A stretch of 64,000 bases of DNA from Anolis carolinensis (Eukaryota), in assembly GCF_035594765.1 (NCBI RefSeq), contig NC_085841.1, forward strand, positions 316,395,402 through 316,459,401, given 5' to 3'. The translations under genes and the position numbers were made by a program. Every line of letters starts with the position of its first letter. Within the stretch, counting starts at the first letter, position 1. Positions 20,510-35,993 of this stretch are shown here, piece after piece. The notes below the pieces were generated by a model. It saw only the letters and a program-made list of their open reading frames with translations, ran no database searches and had not been told where the DNA came from.

Positions 20510-21474
20510 TGTCACGACCCAGGCTGCAGAGCACCAATAACCATACACAGAGGCCAGAATCTATCTAATATCTTTATTAAGGAAATAAGTAAAGGCAATA
20601 AAAATAAGTGTAGAATATAGTTCAGAAGATGTCCTTTCAGGAAAGGTCAAATATAGTCCAGGAAAACAATGTCCAATATGAAATAGTAAGGTCCAAAGTT
20701 GTAATCCAGTAACCGAAACACTCACTTTGCCAAGCAGAGTGAGGGGAGATGACAAGGTCCTTTAATCCATGAAACTTAGGCAAGGCAAGGAAATAGCTTG
20801 ATTCTTGGTACACAAAGCTTGATTCAAGGCAACAAGGAACGAGGAACAGGGACAAGATCCGTGGTAAATACTTGGCAAGGTCCGGGAAGCAAGGCAAGGT
20901 CCTGGAAGGCAAGGCTGAGTCCTAGGAAACAAGGCAAGGTCCGTGAAGCAAACAAGGCTGGGAACGTGAACGTAGGCTTGGAAACAGGAACGAGGCTTGG
21001 AAACTGGAGTAGCGCTGTCCACACACAACCTACTCCAGTAGCTGACGAATTGACTCCGCAAGATTCCTTCGGGGCAAGGAACCTAAATAGGGTCTCGTTT
21101 TCCCACCAAAGAACACTTCTCTGGGGAATCAGAACCGAAAGTCAATCTCTGTGTCCAGATGCATGACTCCCTAGAATTTCTCATGGAAGCAGTCTTAATC
21201 AGCTGAATGCCTGGCTGCGATTCTCAGGCTTCTGCGATTAGCCTGCTGAACTCCTTTTTGTTGTTGATAATAACTACGGCGAGAAAATGGGGGAGATTCT
21301 GACTCAGGGCTTGTTTGGCAGATTTCTGGAAGGCAAACCTCTTGCAGGTGCAAGGGCTCCAATTCAGGCTGGGAAAGTTCCAATTCTGGCTGAAATGGTG
21401 GAAAACCCAAGTTTTCCTCTTCATCTGTCACAACAGCGTTAGGAACGGGACTACATGGCCCATGAGTCATCACA
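20510..21474 (-). mobile_element. Solo LTR of the Gypsy/chromovirus family at 29599-35988 (diverged subfamily)
   Basis: 965 bp, TG...CA ends, 5-bp TSD GAGCC (20505-20509, 21475-21479), colinear with the LTRs of the full element. Confidence 0.95.
21195..21470 (-). other. LTR (U3)-encoded 91-aa reading frame, homolog of the Pol C-terminal tail
   Basis: MTHGPCSP...RRSLRIAARHSAD*; same length and 60/91 identical (manual count) to 30277-30552. Confidence 0.8.
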
Positions 21475-27163: not shown

Positions 27164-29160
27164 TTTTAAGCAAAATAAAAATGTGTATTTTGAACAAATA
27201 CTGGTATTGGGATGATCACTTGGAAAAGAGACACTTTTTCATGGTAAGTGATCACCAGCTGAAATTTTTTCACTCACATAATGTAGGAAGAGTCTTGTCC
27301 TACTGTTGTTTCTTTTTAAAATCCAGACATAATGGTTGTTTGGTGGACAGGAAGATTTTCAGTGTCCATGAACAGAATTAGGCAGCAACTTCAAAACAAA
27401 GGGAATCTTGTATGGATATATTGTAACCAACTTGTTAGTAAACCAGGAAATTGATGGTTGGTCTTAGTTAAGCTGTGCTATGGAATACTTTTTGACCTTA
27501 TCTGGAACCAAATGGAAAACCAAGGTTCGAAACCACATTTTCAACCAAAACCAAACCAGAAGAGAAACAGAAAGGTCACAGTTTGTTTCCTTAATACTCA
27601 GAATTATAGTTGGCATACAAAATAGAATTAAGCTGAATAGAAGGATATTTGTACTGTCCTTTTGGTTAATGTCAACTTTTTAAAATGATGGTTTGATCCA
27701 CAAATCAGTCAGTCATCACAACAATGCAATGATGTGGTTTTATATGTAAACCATGAATGCAAAAAAAAAAAAACTTGAGTGGTGGAATCATGGTTGCCTT
27801 ACAAGTATGGCAGCTCTACAGGTCTGGCATCAGCCACACTAATAAAATCAAATCCAATGCTGTTTTATGACCTTGAATTTATGTGACTACAGAAGATCAA
27901 AGGATTTCTGTCCCACTGGACTACAAGGTCTATAGTTCATGGCAAAAAAAAGAGAGAGGGAAAAAACTCATCAAAAAGAACATTTTAGTTGTGAGGCTTT
28001 TCATTTTAATCAGCTATAGCAATAAAGAGCTGCTAGGTGTCCAAAAACATTCTCCAAGATCACAGACAAAAGCACCTTTTCATACACTCCACATTCTTAT
28101 TTAGATCCATACAATGTTTCTGGTTTGCTCATGCTCTTGAACCTTCTCATGCTATAATTTGTTCTGCACATACCTTTTTTTCCTCCCTTAATTTTCCCCT
28201 CAATTTAAACATGAAAAGTTTCAGAACATGGGAAGATTAATGGTGCAAGAAGCTTTCACTTTAATATTAAGGTGCTACAAGTTCTCAGAATAGAACTTAA
28301 TTGTAATTGCAGCTGAGTATTCCAGGGTGGCCCCACTCCACAGAGTGAAATAGTTATATGCTAGAGGACTGTGGCTTTCTCATTGGCAAGAATAGCAAGA
28401 TATATCTATCTGCTGTGTCTATAAAAAGGGGTTGAAAGCAGCAGCCGTTCTGCTGAAAAAACATTTTGGTGTCATTAAGGTAGTTCATGCTTTCTGCGCC
28501 TCTCACTTGTGTTAAAAACACACTGCAGAATTATAGCAGTTTGACACCACATTAACTGCCATGGCTTGGTATAGAATTCTGGGAATTGCAGTTTTGAGAG
28601 ATATATACTTTTTATCTTTGAGAGCGCTGGTGATGTAACAAACTATATCCTAGGATTCCAAAGAATGGAACTATTATAGCAGTTAAAAGGATTTCAAACT
28701 GTTAGAATTCTGCAATAGGGATTGTCTCTTACTAGACAAAAGGAACCAAAGTTATCAACAATGGAAATTTTGCACAATCCAGTGCCTGGAATAACTGCAC
28801 AGTGCCTGGAATAAATGCTGTTTTAGTTTTCCTGGATCTAGAATTATGTCATATACATTTGACAACACACATGCCTGGTCTGAGCTTGTTAAACATAACT
28901 AAACATTATCTTCCATGCAATTTGCCAAAGCTTGTCTCTCTTCACTGACAGATGCAAGCAGAGAAAACAACAGCCTTGACTCTTGGGAGTTTTAACAAGG
29001 CTTGGTCTGCACAAATAGTAGAATAATGTGATTCCCTGTTGCTCAGAATCATTGTCTGCTGAAGTTGAGTAGTATCCTGAAGCAGAGTGCACTGCACTCC
29101 TTCCAGGGGCAAGGGAAATACCATTTTTGAATGCTCTTGAATATTAAGCAAGTATTGCAA

Positions 29161-29598
29161 TATTGTTGTTGTTGTTGTTGTTGTATGACACAGCAAACAA
29201 GATAGATATGCTGGATTTCATATCACAAAATCACAAGTCGAACACTTCCCAAGTGTCTAGGACTTTGTGATGTATTTTCGGATGATGCGTGCAGATCCCA
29301 GTAGGGTGGCCTTTTGCAGTTGGCAGATCGTAATTTTGTCAATGTCTATTGTTTCCAAATGCCGACTGAGATCTTTTGGCATGGCACCCAATGTGCCCAT
29401 CACCACCGGGACCACCTGCACTGGTTTCTGCCAGAGTCTTTGCAGTTCAATCTTGAGGTCCTGATCGCGGCTGAGTTTTTCCTGTTGTTTTTCATCAATG
29501 CAACTGTCACCTGGGATGGCAACATCAATGAACCAAACCTTTTTCTTTCCCACAACTGTGATGTCTGGTGTGTCGGGTTCCAGAACTTTGTCAGTCTG
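29161..29598 (-). mobile_element. R4/Dong-clade LINE, 3' part (restriction-like endonuclease and 3' UTR)
   Basis: TPDITVV...FIDVAIPGD...EKLS (PD..D motif), QLQKATLLGSARIIRKY*; (CAA)n tail at ~29163-29183. Confidence 0.85.
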
Positions 29599-30556
29599 TG
29601 TCACGACCCAGGCTGCAGAGCACCAATAACCATACACAGAGGCCAGATTCTATCTAATATCTTTATTAAGGAAATATATAAAGTTAATAAAAGCAAGTGT
29701 ATGAAATAGTCCAGAAGTAGACCTTTCAGGGAAGGTCAAAATTAGTCCAAGAAAACAATGTCCAATATGAAATATTAAGGTCCAAAGTTGTAATCCAATA
29801 ACCGAAACACTCACTTTGCCAGGCAAAGTGAGGGGAGATGACAAGGTCCTTTAGTCCATGAACTTGAGCAAGGCTAGGAAATAACTTGAAACAAGGCTTG
29901 ATACAAGGCAACAAGGAACGAGGAGCGAGAACAAGGTCCGTGGAATTACTTGGCAAAACCCGGGAAACAAGGCAAGGCTGAGTCCTGGAAAACAAGGCAA
30001 GGTCCGTGGAGGTAAACAAGGCTGGAAACGGGAGCGAAGGCTTGGAATCAGGAACAAGGCTTGAAACAGGAACGAGGCTTGGAAACGGAGCGCGCTGTCC
30101 ACACACAACTTACTCCAGTAGCTGACGAATTGACTCCGCAAGATCCCTTTGTGGGTAAAACACCTAAATAGGGTCTAGTTTTCCCACCAAAGAACAGTTC
30201 ACTGGGGAACCAGAAACGAAAGCTAATCTCTGAGTCCAGATGCATGACTCCTTAAAGTTTCTCATGGAAAACAGGCTTAATCAGCTAAATTCTTAGCAGC
30301 TATCCTAGCACTCCTGCGAGAGGCCGCTTGAACTCCTCTCTGTTGTTTACAAAACTCGTGGCGAGAAAACACAGGAGATTTAGGCTCAGGGCTTGTTTGA
30401 CAGACTTCTGGAAGACAAATCTCTTGCAGGTGCAAGGTTCCCAGATCTGGCTGGGAAGGTTCCAATTCTGACTGAGACGGTGAAAAACCCAAGTTCTCCT
30501 CTTCATCTGGGACTACAGTGCCATGAATGGGATTACATGGCCCATGACTCATCACA
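29599..30556 (-). repeat. 3' LTR
   Basis: TG...CA ends; same as 35031-35988 except 30479 G vs 35911 A; minus-strand AATAAA at 29662-29667. Confidence 0.95.
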
Positions 30557-33500
30557 CTATCCCCCTCCTCAAGCCCCCTCTCAAACTGGGACTCTCTCCC
30601 CGAGGCGCGAGGCCGCGGCTTGGCGGGATAGGTCTGATGGAAGCGGCGGGTTAGATCAGGAGCATGGACTGTGGAAGCGTCTTCCCAAGAGCGTTCCTCG
30701 GGGCCAAAACCCACCCAGTCAATGAGATATTGTAGGCGGCGGCGGTGAAAGCGAGAATCCAAAATGTCCTGAACCTCAAACTCCTCCTCTCCATCTACCC
30801 AAACAGGAGGGGGGGCCGGCCGGTCTGTATCAGGGCGCGCACCATCCGCCGGAAGGAGTAGGGAACGATGGAACACTGGATGAATGCGCATTGAGCGCGG
30901 AAGTTGGAGTTTGAAAGTCACGGGGTTAAGTTGCGCCACCACTGGATAGGGGCCAATGAAACGGGCATCTAACTTCCGGCAAGGGCGATGGGAGGGCAAA
31001 AAGCGAGTGGACAGAAGAACCCGGTCTCCTACCTTGATTTCGGGGCCCGGCTGGCGATGTTTGTCCGCGTGACGTTTATAGTCCTCCTTGGCTTGGTCTA
31101 GTTGCTGGAGCAAGAGTTGTTGCACCGCTGTGAGTTCCTGCAGCCAGTCCTCTGCTGCGGGAACTTCTGAGGTTTCAATGACAGGAGGAAAGAAACGTGG
31201 ATGGAAGCCGTAGTTTGCAAAGAACGGGGTTTCTTTAGTAGAAGCCTGGACCCCATTGTTGTAGGCAAACTCTGACAACGATAACAGGGAAGCCCAATTG
31301 TCCTGTTGGTAGTTCACATAACAGCGAAGGTATTGTTCCAAAGTGGCATTGGTGCGCTCAGTTTGCCCATCTGTTTGGGGATGATGAGCCGAAGATAAAC
31401 GAGAGTCTATGCCCAATAGTTTTTGTAGTGCTTTCCAGAAACGAGAGGTGAATTGGGACCCACGGTCTGTGACCAAACTCTTGGGCAATCCATGCAATCT
31501 GAAAACATGTTGGAGGAATAGATCTGCAGTCTCTTTGGCCGTGGGAAGGCCTTCACAGGGAATGAAATGGGCTAACTTGGTGAAAAGGTCCACCACCACT
31601 AGGATTGTGGTGAATCCACAGGAAGGTGGTAGATCAGTGATAAAATCCGCAGAGATTATTTCCCATGGGTGGGATGGGGTAGGGAGGGGATGCAGAAGCC
31701 CTGAGGGCTTCTCCCTTCTTGTCTTGGAGCGCTGGCATACTGGGCAGGTGTTGACATATTTTTCCACATCCTTGCGGATCTTGGGCCACCAGAAATCTCT
31801 TAGGATCAAATGCATAGTTTTGAATAGTCCGAAATGCCCTGCTGGCTTGCAGTCATGACACAGACGAAGTGCCTTTTCTCTGCCCGGTCCTGGGGGGATG
31901 TAAACATGATTTCTATAGCAAAGTAGCCCATCCTTAAGCGAAAAGGGAAAATGTAGTCCTTGGCGAAGTTGGTCCTGTGCCCAGGCATCTACTTGCTGGC
32001 TGGCCCTGATTTCCTGAGCACAAAGGGGCCCTGGAGTAGAGGGAGTTGATTCAATGGGAGTGGATTTGGTGTTTCCCACTGTGAGCGTGGCAAAGTTCTC
32101 GGGTTGTAGCAGCTGAGATTCAAAGGTCTCCTTGCGCCCTGCAGCGTATTCCGGTTTTCGTGACAGAGCATCTGCTTGCTTGGTCTGGGCTGGGGTTACA
32201 TAATGAATTTGGAAGTTAAAACGTTCAAAGAATAAAGCCCAGCGTTGTTGCCTCTGATTTAGCTTGCGGGCAGTTCTTAGATGCTCTAGATTCCGATGAT
32301 CAGTATGGACTTCAATGGGAAATTTGGCCCCTTCTAACCAATGTCTCCAAGTTTCAAAGGCTGCCTTTATGGCCAATAGTTCCTTTTCCCAAATGGTGTA
32401 GTTTCTCTCTGGTGCGGTCAATTGACGGGAATAAAAGGCACAAGGATGAAGATGATCTCCCACCGGTTGTAGGAGTACAGCCCCAATTGCCACATCGGAG
32501 GCGTCCGCCTGCACGACAAAAAGGGTTTCAGGATCTGGATGCTGAAGGATTGGCTGGGACGTGAATAATTTCTTTAGTTGCTGGAACCCTTTCTCTGCTT
32601 GATCTGTCCAGCGGAAGGGCTGTTTCCCACGGATGCAGCTGGTGATTGGGTCAGACCAGCGGGCAAAGTCTGGAATGAACTTGCGATAGTAGTTCGCGAA
32701 CCCCAAGAATCGTTGCACCTCTTTCTTGTTGGTGGGCGCCCGCCATTCCAATACTGCTGAAACCTTTGCCGGGTCCATGGAGAGCCCTAGTGGCGAGACG
32801 CGGTACCCCAGGAAATCTACCTCTTGTAGATCAAAAGCACATTTTTCCAGCTTGGCATAAAGTCCATGATCTCGCAATCGTTGTAACACCATTCTGACGT
32901 GGTTCTCATGTTCTGATTGTGATCTAGAAAACACCAAAAAATCGTCCAGGTAGATGATCAAGAACCGATCTAGATAATCCTGAAAGATGTCATTGACAAA
33001 ATGTTGGAACGTTGCGGGAGCTCCACATAATCCATAATTCATAACTCGGGACTCGAATAATCCGAATTTAGTCTGGAAGGCGGTCTTCCACTCGTCCCCT
33101 TCTCTGATGCGAACTAGATTATACGCCCCCCGAAGATCCAGCTTGGTGTAGACCTTGGCTCCTCGAAGTCGGTCTAGTAGGTCCGAGATTAAGGGCAGGG
33201 GATAGCTGTTCCGCTTAGTGATATTGTTCAATGCTCTATAGTCCACCACCAAGCGTAATTCCCCGGATTTCTTTTTCACAAACATCACTGGGGAAGCGGC
33301 TGGGGATTGAGAGGGTCTGATGAATCCCTTGCGAAGGTTTGACTCTATAAACTCCTTGAGAGCTTCTTGCTCCGGTTCAGTCAGGGAGTAGAGATGTCCT
33401 CGCGGGATCGGGGCCCCCTCCACCAAGTCAATGGCACAGTCATAAGGTCTATGTGGGGGTAATCTCTCGGCCTCTTTTTCATTGAATACATCCCAATATT

Positions 33501-34023
33501 CTGAGTACTTCTTGGGCAAGGTGATAATGGGTTCAGTGTCTGTGGCATGGCAGACCTTGGCTACAAGGCAATGGTTTTGGCAATATTTTGAAGCAAACTG
33601 CAGTTCTCTGTTGGACCAGGAGATGCTTGGGTCGTGAAGTGTCAGCCATGGAATTCCCAAAATCACAGGGAAATGGGGAACCTCGGTAACAAAGAAGGAA
33701 ATCTCTTCCATATGTTCCCTTATCCACATTCTGGTGGGTTCCGACCACTGGCTTACGGGACCCGTCTTGAGGGGGCGGCCATCGATGGCTTGCACCACAC
33801 GGGCATTCTTGAAGTCATGGTATTGTAATCCCAGAGAGTCGGCATACTCTCTATCAATGAAATTGTTTGTGGCTCCTGAGTCTATCATGGCATGGACAAT
33901 GACTGGCCCCTTTTTTGCTGACCACAAGGTGACCACTAGAAGAAATAGGACCCCGGTTGGCGGCTCTTGAGTGGGTTTTTTGACCGGGTTGGCGAGCCTC
34001 TCTACGCCCGGTCGCTGGCTTCC
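30277..34023 (-). CDS. pol: Pol polyprotein (protease, RT, RNase H, integrase, GPY/F, chromodomain, LTR-encoded tail), -1 frame relative to gag
   Basis: DSGA protease, YLDD RT, DASD/EKELLAI/TDH/ADALSR RNase H, H-H-C-C zinc finger, D-D-E (ADFI, TDRGSQF, TERTN), GPY, chromodomain FEVQDILDSR...YLIDWVGF; frame open from the TGA at 34048 to the TAA at 30277 (ORF track 30277-33936). Confidence 0.95.
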   Translation of the reverse strand, partial: GSQRPGVERLANPVKKPTQEPPTGVLFLLVVTLWSAKKGPVIVHAMIDSGATNNFIDREYADSLGLQYHDFKNARVVQAIDGRPLKTGPVSQWSEPTRMWIREHMEEISFFVTEVPHFPVILGIPWLTLHDPSISWSNRELQFASKYCQNHCLVAKVCHATDTEPIITLPKKYSEYWDVFNEKEAERLPPHRPYDCAIDLVEGAPIPRGHLYSLTEPEQEALKEFIESNLRKGFIRPSQSPAASPVMFVKKKSGELRLVVDYRALNNITKRNSYPLPLISDLLDRLRGAKVYTKLDLRGAYNLVRIREGDEWKTAFQTKFGLFESRVMNYGLCGAPATFQHFVNDIFQDYLDRFLIIYLDDFLVFSRSQSEHENHVRMVLQRLRDHGLYAKLEKCAFDLQEVDFLGYRVSPLGLSMDPAKVSAVLEWRAPTNKKEVQRFLGFANYYRKFIPDFARWSDPITSCIRGKQPFRWTDQAEKGFQQLKKLFTSQPILQHPDPETLFVVQADASDVAIGAVLLQPVGDHLHPCAFYSRQLTAPERNYTIWEKELLAIKAAFETWRHWLEGAKFPIEVHTDHRNLEHLRTARKLNQRQQRWALFFERFNFQIHYVTPAQTKQADALSRKPEYAAGRKETFESQLLQPENFATLTVGNTKSTPIESTPSTPGPLCAQEIRASQQVDAWAQDQLRQGLHFPFSLKDGLLCYRNHVYIPPGPGREKALRLCHDCKPAGHFGLFKTMHLILRDFWWPKIRKDVEKYVNTCPVCQRSKTRREKPSGLLHPLPTPSHPWEIISADFITDLPPSCGFTTILVVVDLFTKLAHFIPCEGLPTAKETADLFLQHVFRLHGLPKSLVTDRGSQFTSRFWKALQKLLGIDSRLSSAHHPQTDGQTERTNATLEQYLRCYVNYQQDNWASLLSLSEFAYNNGVQASTKETPFFANYGFHPRFFPPVIETSEVPAAEDWLQELTAVQQLLLQQLDQAKEDYKRHADKHRQPGPEIKVGDRVLLSTRFLPSHRPCRKLDARFIGPYPVVAQLNPVTFKLQLPRSMRIHPVFHRSLLLPADGARPDTDRPAPPPVWVDGEEEFEVQDILDSRFHRRRLQYLIDWVGFGPEERSWEDASTVHAPDLTRRFHQTYPAKPRPRASGRESQFERGLEEGDSVMSHGPCNPIHGTVVPDEEENLGFSPSQSELEPSQPDLGTLHLQEICLPEVCQTSPEPKSPVFSRHEFCKQQRGVQAASRRSARIAAKNLAD
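30557..30582 (-). promoter_or_regulatory. Polypurine tract
   Basis: Minus strand GAGAGGGGGCTTGAGGAGGGGGATAG immediately before the 3' LTR. Confidence 0.85.
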
Positions 34024-34026
34024 CCC
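33962..34026 (-). promoter_or_regulatory. Candidate -1 ribosomal frameshift signal (G_GGG_GAA, 6-nt spacer, pseudoknot)
   Basis: Falls in the only ~45-nt gag/pol overlap; stem GACCGGG/CCCGGTC; loop GGCTC complementary to downstream GAGCC. Confidence 0.65.
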
Positions 34027-34988
34027 GCCGGCTGTGCGCCAGCCGCCTCAGATGCCTTCGTCTCCGTGGAGGACGCCGCCGCCAGACGGGCGGCGGGCTT
34101 CCCTTTGGCTGGGCACTCTCTGGCGAAGTGGCCCCCGTTCCCGCAGTACCAACAGAGATTTAGGCGTTGGCGGCGGGCCTTCTCGGCGGCATCTAACCTG
34201 GGACGCACATTGCCCAACTGCATCGGCACCTCCTCGCTCCCCCTGGGGTATGGGGCTGGTGGTGGGGGTCTCCATACTGGACGCGGCTGGACGCTGGTGG
34301 GAGCGGGAGGTTTCACCCCAGCTCTACCGCTCTGGCCTCGGACCCATTGTTTTCTGTTGGCAAGCATGACTTCAGCTCGTAAACATTGATCAATGAGTGC
34401 TTCAAGAGAGTGGGGGGGATCCACCTTGGAAATTTCCTCCAACATCTCGATGTTGAGACCCTCCCGAAATTGTCCTCTGAGGGCTATATCATTCCATCCG
34501 GTGCTGTGGGCCAGCACTCGGAACTCGGCTATGTACTGGGACAAGGGTCTGTCCCCCTGAGAGAGGCGCCGGAGTTTATGGCCGGCTGCCTCCAAATTGT
34601 CTTCGATCCCCCAAGTCGCCTTAATGTGATCCAAGAAGTGTTGCGCTGATCTTAGGTGTGGGGAAACTTGGTCGAACAGTGCCGTCGCCCAGTTGGCCGC
34701 TGGCCCATCTAAAAGGCTGTAGATCCACGCCACTTTGATGTCTTCTTGGGGAAACTCGGCATTGCGGGCCTCTAGATAAGCCTGGCATTGGCGACGGAAA
34801 ACATGAACCTTAGAAGCTTCTCCAGAAAACTTGGTTGGCAACGCCAGGGCCGGGAGACGGATTCCGCGTTCCTTCAATCCCTTTATTTCTCCCTCCTGCG
34901 CATTGAGCTTATCACGGATGCGATCCACTTCCTCCTTGTCGATGGTGTAGCTGAGTGGCTGGCCTCCCGGTCCGGCTCCGGTAGACAT
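34002..34988 (-). CDS. gag: Gag (coiled coil, capsid, CCHC zinc knuckle), PEG10/Sushi-like
   Basis: 328 aa; LPTKFSG...FRRQCQAYL, LSQYIAEFRVLA...GWND, PMQLG...RRQRLNLCWYCGNGGHFARECP. Confidence 0.95.
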   Translation of the reverse strand: MSTGAGPGGQPLSYTIDKEEVDRIRDKLNAQEGEIKGLKERGIRLPALALPTKFSGEASKVHVFRRQCQAYLEARNAEFPQEDIKVAWIYSLLDGPAANWATALFDQVSPHLRSAQHFLDHIKATWGIEDNLEAAGHKLRRLSQGDRPLSQYIAEFRVLAHSTGWNDIALRGQFREGLNIEMLEEISKVDPPHSLEALIDQCLRAEVMLANRKQWVRGQSGRAGVKPPAPTSVQPRPVWRPPPPAPYPRGSEEVPMQLGNVRPRLDAAEKARRQRLNLCWYCGNGGHFARECPAKGKPAARLAAASSTETKASEAAGAQPAGEASDRA

Positions 34989-35018
34989 TCTGGCCTAGGT
35001 TAATTGGTGCTTAGGGTG

Positions 35019-35030
35019 GCGGAGTCAAAC
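35019..35030 (-). promoter_or_regulatory. Non-tRNA (self-priming) primer-binding site
   Basis: GTTTGACTCCGC follows the 5' LTR with no TGG; TTGACTCCGC is complementary to GCGGAGTCAA at 35571-35562 inside the LTR. Confidence 0.75.
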
Positions 35031-35988
35031 TGTCACGACCCAGGCTGCAGAGCACCAATAACCATACACAGAGGCCAGATTCTATCTAATATCTTTATTA
35101 AGGAAATATATAAAGTTAATAAAAGCAAGTGTATGAAATAGTCCAGAAGTAGACCTTTCAGGGAAGGTCAAAATTAGTCCAAGAAAACAATGTCCAATAT
35201 GAAATATTAAGGTCCAAAGTTGTAATCCAATAACCGAAACACTCACTTTGCCAGGCAAAGTGAGGGGAGATGACAAGGTCCTTTAGTCCATGAACTTGAG
35301 CAAGGCTAGGAAATAACTTGAAACAAGGCTTGATACAAGGCAACAAGGAACGAGGAGCGAGAACAAGGTCCGTGGAATTACTTGGCAAAACCCGGGAAAC
35401 AAGGCAAGGCTGAGTCCTGGAAAACAAGGCAAGGTCCGTGGAGGTAAACAAGGCTGGAAACGGGAGCGAAGGCTTGGAATCAGGAACAAGGCTTGAAACA
35501 GGAACGAGGCTTGGAAACGGAGCGCGCTGTCCACACACAACTTACTCCAGTAGCTGACGAATTGACTCCGCAAGATCCCTTTGTGGGTAAAACACCTAAA
35601 TAGGGTCTAGTTTTCCCACCAAAGAACAGTTCACTGGGGAACCAGAAACGAAAGCTAATCTCTGAGTCCAGATGCATGACTCCTTAAAGTTTCTCATGGA
35701 AAACAGGCTTAATCAGCTAAATTCTTAGCAGCTATCCTAGCACTCCTGCGAGAGGCCGCTTGAACTCCTCTCTGTTGTTTACAAAACTCGTGGCGAGAAA
35801 ACACAGGAGATTTAGGCTCAGGGCTTGTTTGACAGACTTCTGGAAGACAAATCTCTTGCAGGTGCAAGGTTCCCAGATCTGGCTGGGAAGGTTCCAATTC
35901 TGACTGAGACAGTGAAAAACCCAAGTTCTCCTCTTCATCTGGGACTACAGTGCCATGAATGGGATTACATGGCCCATGACTCATCACA
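35031..35988 (-). repeat. 5' LTR
   Basis: 958 bp, TG...CA ends, copy of 29599-30556. Confidence 0.95.
35597..35602 (-). promoter_or_regulatory. TATA-like box of the LTR promoter
   Basis: TATTTA starting 31 nt upstream of the predicted +1 (35571); also present in the 3' LTR and the solo LTR. Confidence 0.6.
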
Positions 35989-35993
35989 GTCTG

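What the first reader, a model, noticed from the sequence alone, without database searches (positions are those of the whole stretch)
35019..35602. tRNA-independent self-priming architecture in a lizard LTR retrotransposon
Seen: the 5' LTR is followed by GT-TTGACTCCGC (35030-35019), with no TGG and so no tRNA-CCA complement. The exact 10-nt complement GCGGAGTCAA lies inside the LTR (35571-35562), starting 31 nt downstream of the first base of a TATTTA box (35602-35597), where +1 is expected. Pairing can extend past a 3x3 internal loop (GTCA with the TGAC at the LTR end). The TATA-like box and the 10-mer are both conserved in the diverged solo LTR. Established: fission yeast Tf1 primes reverse transcription with its own first 11 nt, and this was proposed for the Tf1/Sushi group. 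Inference: the same mechanism operates here across a ~530-nt loop, in an apparently transposition-competent amniote element.
Basis: partly seen in the sequence, partly recalled or inferred. Interest (0 to 1): 0.7.

Follow-up and report, generated by a model that had tools for sequence, protein, structure and literature searches.

The report
Self-priming lizard chromovirus retrotransposon
A young jumping gene in the green anole genome has no tRNA docking site; the ten bases there pair with the predicted start of its own RNA, and six related lineages in the same genome keep this pairing with different letters, so it likely primes its own copying as yeast Tf1 does, a mechanism already proposed in print for this vertebrate group.

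Summary
The element (35988-29599, minus strand) is a recently inserted Ty3/gypsy chromovirus of Anolis (LTRs differ at 1 of 958 nt; open gag and pol frames with chromodomain). Two bases after the 5' LTR lies TTGACTCCGC, exactly complementary to 35571-35562, 31 nt after a TATA-like box (chance 10 of 5000 shuffles). The covariation test asked for passes: seven lineages in this genome (RT identity 46-100%) carry seven different primer-site words, each matched only in its own LTR, about 30 nt after an AT-rich box; two tRNA-primed families show no such match (0 of 8). I also found the third duplex of the Tf1 'pretzel' (U5 with leader), with compensatory changes. The transcription start is not mapped (no raw RNA reads); priming itself is untested. 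Self-priming is described in print as a common feature of the Tf1/sushi group, vertebrates included, so this is a new member of a known kind; this scan noted the same on other vertebrate DNA. Side lead: the Pol frame runs 280 nt into the 3' LTR and ends in an HMGN-like RRSARI motif.

The parts
35031..35988 (-). 5' LTR, 958 nt (TGT...ACA); predicted U3 35988-35572, R from 35571 to about 35080, short U5
   Evidence: 1 mismatch to the 3' LTR; U3/R/U5 borders predicted from TATA-like box and AATAAA
35597..35602 (-). TATA-like box TATTTA
   Evidence: TATATA, TATTTA or AATATA at the same place across family copies
35562..35571 (-). predicted self-primer GCGGAGTCAA at the predicted RNA 5' end
   Evidence: pairs perfectly with the PBS in 68 of 75 family copies examined
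35555..35558 (-). GTCA, pairs with TGAC at the LTR end (second duplex, short)
   Evidence: length varies between subfamilies
35094..35099 (-). polyadenylation signal AATAAA, 69 nt before the LTR end
35052..35079 (-). U5 arm of the U5-leader stem (35079-35072 and 35063-35052)
35019..35028 (-). primer-binding site TTGACTCCGC, 2 nt after the LTR, no TGG
34989..35010 (-). leader arm of the U5-leader stem, ending at the gag start codon (third duplex; crosses the primer duplex)
   Evidence: 24 compensatory cells versus 5.1 in shuffles, 0 of 500
34002..34988 (-). gag ORF (Retrotrans_gag, DUF4939, CCHC knuckle)
30277..34047 (-). pol frame (-1 to gag): protease, RT, RNase H, integrase, SH3_Tf2-1, chromodomain, and a tail that runs 280 nt into the 3' LTR
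30560..30582 (-). polypurine tract
29599..30556 (-). 3' LTR, 958 nt
   Evidence: target-site duplication CAGAC on both sides of the element
30301..30318 (-). codons for RRSARI, HMGN-like motif near the Pol C-terminus, inside U3 of the 3' LTR
   Evidence: motif text from PMC12487698; function untested
20510..21474 (-). solo LTR of a sister subfamily (TSD GGCTC), keeps box and primer word

Best explanation
This is a recently inserted Ty3/gypsy chromovirus whose primer-binding site is complementary to a 10-mer in its own LTR instead of a tRNA, and it likely primes minus-strand DNA synthesis with the first 10 or 11 bases of its own RNA, as Tf1 does. Steps: (1, inferred) transcription starts at or within a base or two of 35571, about 30 nt after the TATA-like box; (2, pairing shown in sequence, folding predicted) the 5' end folds back over a 533-nt loop onto the PBS, flanked by a short duplex with the LTR end and a 20-bp U5-leader stem that crosses the primer duplex (the 'pretzel'); (3, inferred from Tf1) the element's RT/RNase H cuts after the primer to free a 3' OH; (4, inferred) the primer is extended through U5 and R, and the PBS of the daughter copy is re-written from the primer, which would keep both words matched as they drift.
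For: Exact 10-nt complement, 10 of 5000 shuffles. Seven lineage words (A TTGACTCCGC, B1 TTGCCACACGC, B2 TTGCCCAACGC, C TTGTACTGAAT, D TTGTTACCA, E AAGTCGAGAAT, F ATAACACTACT) each find 9-12 nt in their own LTR and at most 8 nt in another lineage's LTR (13x13 matrix). Counts of distinct 5' ends with a 10-nt or longer self-match: B 29 of 35, C 4 of 5, E 10 of 10, F 3 of 3; tRNA-primed controls 0 of 4 and 0 of 4; family A 68 of 75 perfect pairs, 4 further ends without a site found. The match begins 2 nt after the LTR end in A, B, C, E and F, and 28-34 nt after an AT-rich word in 11 of 12 representatives (word list chosen after looking). Single-copy compensatory changes in both LTRs and the PBS: L084 and L117. 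U5-leader stem: 95.5% of cells paired, 24 cells with two-sided changes versus 5.1 shuffled, 0 of 500; fold z -3.5; compatible with a free PBS (-30.8 kcal/mol). No tRNA 3' end fits (best 2 nt) while controls fit 12 nt (Leu) and 9 nt. All self-matching lineages fall in one fungal/vertebrate chromovirus clade, controls outside. Literature.
Against: No start site mapped and no priming assay. The folded isolated U5-leader region prefers a hairpin that covers 5-6 PBS bases (-36.3 versus -30.8 kcal/mol), and the whole 592-nt 5' region, folded without pseudoknots, does not form the primer duplex and is no more stable than shuffles (z +0.5). 7 of 75 family-A copies have a mismatch between primer and PBS and 7 of 53 ends of B, C, E, F lack a 10-nt match (in 6 of these 7 no primer-like site within 2 mismatches was found upstream). 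Pairs-with-change and pair-type measures of the stem did not beat shuffles (121 and 113 of 500). The tRNA set is incomplete (66 sequences, 30 anticodon types). Many subfamilies have only a weak box (CAATATAGG). The search anchors allowed at most 2-3 substitutions, which favours conserved copies.
Confidence: 0.85

Rival explanations
1. [quoted passage not shown]
For: The start is unmapped; the loop is long (533 nt here, up to about 770 nt in lineage B); solo LTRs keep box and primer word; Tf2 is known to use alternative start sites (PMC5341516, passages).
Against: The word sits at a near-constant 28-34 nt from an AT-rich box in unrelated LTR sequences, the spacing of a polymerase II start; lineages C, E, F have loops of only 90-99 nt with the same layout.
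Confidence: 0.1
2. The pairing has another role (packaging, dimer formation, translation control, protection of the PBS region) and priming uses a tRNA fragment or other host RNA.
For: The U5-leader stem ends at the gag start codon, so a translation switch is plausible; the tRNA set tested is incomplete.
Against: No TGG; best internal tRNA match 5-8 nt for the seven words; seven unrelated words would need seven unrelated host primers; the pairing always starts 2 nt after the LTR end, where a primer must end; L084 shows primer and PBS changed together in both LTRs.
Confidence: 0.04
3. Chance complementarity in a 958-nt LTR.
For: None beyond the general frequency of short matches (6-7 nt are usual).
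Against: 10 of 5000 for this copy; repeated with different letters in six further lineages and absent in two tRNA-primed families.
Confidence: 0.01

Closest known systems
[quoted passage not shown] 2001 (not held; known here only through citing passages in PMC6317226, bioRxiv 2022.12.06.519325, PMC4600332)
   Same: gag with CCHC, pol in the -1 frame, chromodomain integrase, no tRNA PBS, self-complement in the LTR, three-duplex 'pretzel', AATAAA close to the LTR end (PMC3601003 passage on Sushi LTRs); V-clade is stated to occur in amniotes (PMC2774666 passages).
   Different: Long LTR (958 nt) with a 533-nt loop; Pol frame runs into U3 with an HMGN-like motif. Whether Butler 2001 or Repbase entries already show the Anolis primer pairing I could not see.
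Tf1 and Tf2 (Schizosaccharomyces pombe), Tj1, Tosmo1-3
   Same: Self-primer at the RNA 5' end, PBS just after the CA of the 5' LTR, two flanking duplexes; start-site choice decides whether the primer is present.
   Different: Experimentally shown only in yeast; Tf1/Tf2 have one ORF and no CCHC; PBS letters differ; this element has a frameshift-type gag-pol junction.
Plant Tcn1-clade chromoviruses (PMC6317226, passages)
   Same: Self-priming predicted by the same criterion: 10 nt or more in the 5' LTR complementary to a stretch starting 0-5 nt after the LTR.
   Different: Moss and club-moss hosts.
HMGN/Dsup nucleosome-binding motif RRSARLSA (PMC12487698, passages) - for the side lead only
   Same: RRSARI/RRSLRI near the Pol C-terminus; RRSARL in a Podarcis relative.
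   Different: Six-residue resemblance only; no Pfam match; binding untested.

Membership tests
Ty3/gypsy chromovirus | pol order PR-RT-RH-IN between LTRs with TSD | tested here: met
   best solved relative Ty3 Gag-Pol, E 5e-144
Ty3/gypsy chromovirus | chromodomain at the integrase C-terminus | tested here: met
   PF00385 at residues 1090-1138, E 1.3e-8, above cut-off
Tf1/sushi group (fungi/vertebrates cluster) | RT phylogeny within the fungal/vertebrate chromovirus clade, apart from plant tRNA-primed chromoviruses | tested here: met
   39-row clade with SH-aLRT 100 holding fungal, fish, amphibian and reptile relatives; Solanum, Tanacetum and the tRNA-PBS families outside (quick tree, midpoint root)
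V-clade (Sushi/Amn) | grouping with the named references Sushi-ichi and Amn-ichi/ni/san | tested here: inconclusive
   No named reference sequence was obtainable; the vertebrate rows group with SH-aLRT 88 only
Tf1-type self-priming elements | no tRNA-complementary PBS | tested here: met
   no TGG; best 3' match 2 nt against 66 host tRNA sequences, set incomplete
Tf1-type self-priming elements | 10 nt or more in the 5' LTR complementary to a site 0-5 nt after the LTR | tested here: met
Tf1-type self-priming elements | two further duplexes of PBS-adjacent sequence with LTR sequence (pretzel) | tested here: met
   U5-leader stem with compensatory changes; short LTR-end duplex, 4 bp in this copy. 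Tested for family A; not formally for the other lineages
Tf1-type self-priming elements | the complementary word is the 5' end of the RNA | not testable with these tools
   only assembled contigs were offered; position 31 nt after a TATA-like box is indirect
Tf1-type self-priming elements | RNase H-dependent cleavage releases the primer, which is extended by RT | not testable with these tools
   needs biochemistry

The most novel reading that the evidence does not exclude
Besides self-priming across the longest loops seen here (530-770 nt), this lizard lineage uses U3 of its 3' LTR as coding sequence for an integrase tail that ends in an HMGN-like arginine anchor (RRSARI; RRSARL in a Podarcis relative), so integrase would read chromatin twice, by chromodomain and by the H2A-H2B acidic patch: a nucleosome-docking motif of vertebrate HMGN type on a retrotransposon integrase, which my two paper searches (listings only) did not show described.
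Probability: 0.3. Interest if true: 0.6.

Novelty: new member of a known kind. Interest (0 to 1): 0.3.

Why it matters
Self-priming has been shown by experiment only in fission yeast and inferred elsewhere from sequence. One amniote genome here holds seven recently active lineages that re-wrote primer and PBS together, plus compensatory changes in the third duplex, which is unusually clean comparative support and gives exact predicted start sites for a cheap CAGE/RACE test in a vertebrate. It does not open a new mechanism. The U3-encoded integrase tail with an HMGN-like motif is the part most likely to be new.

Tried and rejected
RNA evidence: no holder on record as RNA and no raw reads were listed. 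Contigs of three runs guessed to be RNA (two studies) stop at 35572/35571, one base from the predicted start; rejected as start-site evidence because a variant at 35542 (A in this copy and in 32 of 32 matches in the fetched loci; G in the window's solo LTR; seen as one other letter in the contigs) forces a 31-mer graph branch exactly there. Depth ratios of contigs were not used. Rfam: no match in 29000-36500 at E<=1. Whole-region folding without pseudoknots cannot represent the pretzel. Complex prediction of the 40-residue Pol tail with host H2A and H2B gave no verdict (score 0.02); it is no evidence either way. Pfam on the tail: nothing at E<=10. The careful RT tree did not finish; the quick tree is reported. 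Five primary papers were not held. Paper searches: (self-priming, Anolis, chromovirus) listed no paper on Anolis self-priming in the held library; most subscription papers and Repbase are outside it, so absence from print is not shown. No supplements were opened. Of the 100 long regions fetched for full elements, those with no RT hit or no LTR pair were dropped from the LTR-pair analyses (listed); the anchored counts scanned all loci held at the time.

Full report
1. The element. The finding lies at the 5' end of a full-length LTR retrotransposon on the minus strand, 35988-29599. The two 958-nt LTRs differ at one base and are flanked by the duplication CAGAC. gag (34988-34002) has a CCHC knuckle; the pol frame (34047-30277, -1 to gag) is open for 1256 codons and carries protease, RT, RNase H, integrase, SH3_Tf2-1 and a chromodomain. 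Its RT-RNase H is 99% identical to UniRef proteins of Anolis carolinensis. An 801-nt probe found six places at 100% identity (the window among them) and 40 scored matches of 95% or more among 6364 candidates, so the family is large and recently active. Whether this copy can move is untested.

2. The observation. After the LTR end (...GTGACA) come GT and TTGACTCCGC; its exact complement starts at 35571, 31 nt after TATTTA; AATAAA lies 69 nt before the LTR end, which predicts a long R (about 490 nt) and a short U5. Ten of 5000 dinucleotide shuffles of the LTR held a complement of 10 nt or more. The solo LTR at 21474-20510 keeps both words.

3. tRNA test. ARAGORN on 50 loci around Rfam tRNA hits gave 66 distinct host tRNA sequences of 30 anticodon types, an incomplete set. 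The best match of the leader to a 3' end with CCA was 2 nt, the best internal match 6 nt. The same test gave 12 nt (tRNA-Leu) for a non-chromovirus gypsy family and 9 nt for a retrovirus-like family in this genome. Because every mature tRNA ends in CCA and the leader has no TGG, a whole-tRNA primer is excluded regardless of the set; tRNA fragments are excluded only for the set tested.

4. Covariation across lineages. I fetched 100 long regions around gag, chromodomain and integrase profile hits, found LTR pairs by self-BLAST and searched each LTR for the complement of its own leader. Seven lineages, 46-100% RT identity to this element, carry seven different words (A, B1, B2, C, D, E, F). In a 13x13 matrix each word finds 9-12 nt in its own lineage's LTR and at most 8 nt in another's. 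Distinct 5' ends with a self-match of 10 nt or more: B 29 of 35, C 4 of 5, E 10 of 10, F 3 of 3; tRNA-primed controls 0 of 8. D rests on one degraded copy with 9 nt. Of the seven misses in B and C, six have no primer-like site within two mismatches upstream (one is a visibly shortened LTR) and one has a point change in the PBS. In family A, 79 PBS-bearing ends were found, 75 with a primer site; 68 pair perfectly and 7 have one or two mismatches, while the spacer between box and primer varies freely. Two copies show primer and PBS changed together, in both LTRs: L084 (family A, a CpG site, so independent decay is possible but needs three events) and L117 (family C). B1 to B2 is a two-position compensatory change. 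The match starts 2 nt after the LTR end in A, B, C, E, F, and 28-34 nt after an AT-rich word in 11 of 12 representatives; such positions make up 1-7% of each LTR, but the word list was drawn up after looking. Loops are 90-99 nt in C, E, F, 205 in D, 450-534 in A and 631-723 in the B representatives, so this element's long loop is not special within the group.

5. The third duplex. The S. osmophilus preprint (passages) describes the Tf1 structure as a central primer/PBS duplex plus two duplexes between PBS-adjacent and LTR sequence, the 'pretzel' of Butler et al. 2001. Here U5 (35079-35052) pairs with the leader (35010-34989) over 20 bp (-36.3 kcal/mol for the region, z -3.5). In 51 distinct family-A sequences 95.5% of cells pair, with 24 two-sided changes at 4 pairs against 5.1 in shuffles (0 of 500), and slid controls reach at most 53% paired; the two measures that count pairs or types did not beat shuffles (121 and 113 of 500), and relatedness inflates cell counts. 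The stem crosses the primer duplex, so ordinary folding cannot show both; with the PBS held free the stem persists at -30.8 kcal/mol and the primer duplex adds -16.7 to -21.2. The second duplex, with the LTR end, is only 4 bp in this copy and longer in some others.

6. Phylogeny. A quick ML tree of 47 RT-RNase H segments places all seven lineages in one clade (SH-aLRT 100) with fungal, fish, amphibian and reptile relatives, with plant sequences and both tRNA-primed families outside. No named Tf1, Sushi-ichi or Amn sequence was available, so the V-clade label is by description, not by direct test.

7. What was not shown. The start site. Only assembled contigs were offered, none on record as RNA, and their stops at 35572 are explained by a variant 30 bases away. 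Cleavage and priming are inferred from Tf1.

8. Comparison with what is known. Neumann et al. 2019 state that self-primers were described for the Tf1/Sushi group from yeast and vertebrates and use the same 10-nt criterion (passages); Guo et al. 2015 say the mechanism is implicated 'from fungi to vertebrates' (passages); Persson et al. 2016 tie Tf2 primer presence to start-site choice (passages). Also read as passages: PMC3601003, PMC5006619, PMC11042837, PMC2774666, PMC12487698. The primary papers of Levin and Butler were not held, so I cannot say whether reptile elements were among Butler's examples. Six paper searches listed nothing on Anolis self-priming. Earlier notes of this scan report the same layout in shark-, ray- and other animal genomes (unchecked AI notes); none for this genome's LTR elements among the 8 shown. 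It works like Tf1, meets every testable feature of the Tf1/sushi group, and is a new member of a known kind.

9. Side lead. The pol frame continues 280 nt into U3 of the 3' LTR and ends RRSARIAAKNLAD; the frame and motif are kept across subfamilies (94 of 124 distinct LTR starts) and a Podarcis relative has RRSARL near its C-terminus. The HMGN nucleosome anchor is RRSARLSA. This is a six-residue resemblance with conservation, not a demonstrated interaction.

10. Verdict. Observation confirmed; interpretation supported (0.85); novelty low because the mechanism is already assigned to this group in print; interest 0.3, for the quality of the comparative evidence and the testable start sites.

Noticed in passing
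window 30556-30277 (-); L071, L084, L106, L108 and others; P0031: The pol frame runs 250-295 nt into the 3' LTR in family A and ends in RRSARIAA or RRSLRIAA; 94 of 124 distinct family-A LTR starts keep R[RWQ]S[AL]RIA in that frame, the window's solo LTR too. A Podarcis relative (64% RT identity) has APRRSARLKA 22 residues before its end. HMGN's nucleosome anchor is RRSARLSA. Lineages B, C, E do not show it in the copies printed.
   Followed up: partly
G000:C1:52843504 and 52848936 (L006, L005); C1:133561593, 133567018, 133572443: Head-to-tail tandem elements about 5.43 kb apart; for L005 the shared LTR is preceded by a polypurine tract. Resembles the tandem Tf1/Tf2 structures of PMC11042837 (passages); unequal recombination is the plain alternative.
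   Followed up: partly
window 34030-33980 (-): The gag-pol overlap is in the -1 frame but the conserved run is G-GGG-GAA, not a standard XXXYYYZ slippery heptamer (canonical form recalled); a GACCGGG/CCCGGTC stem follows. Conserved in most family-A copies printed. How the shift happens is unexplained.
   Followed up: no
window 35041-35021 (-): A competing hairpin (GGGUCG with UGACUC, -5.9 kcal/mol) can cover part of the PBS when the primer is absent; possible switch for RNAs that start downstream.
   Followed up: no
L121-L135 (lineage E), L133, L137, L208, L209 (lineage B2): These lineages keep the self-priming layout but show no chromodomain hit to this element's chromodomain (tblastn E 1e-3).
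   Followed up: no
window 36400-35989 and 29598-29400 (-): The element is inserted in the coding region of a high-copy non-LTR retrotransposon that looks R4/Dong-like by eye (label recalled, not tested).
   Followed up: no
L132, L195, L196, L201; L191-L194: A non-chromovirus gypsy family with a 12-nt tRNA-Leu PBS and a retrovirus-like family with a TGG PBS five bases after the LTR; used as controls.
   Followed up: partly
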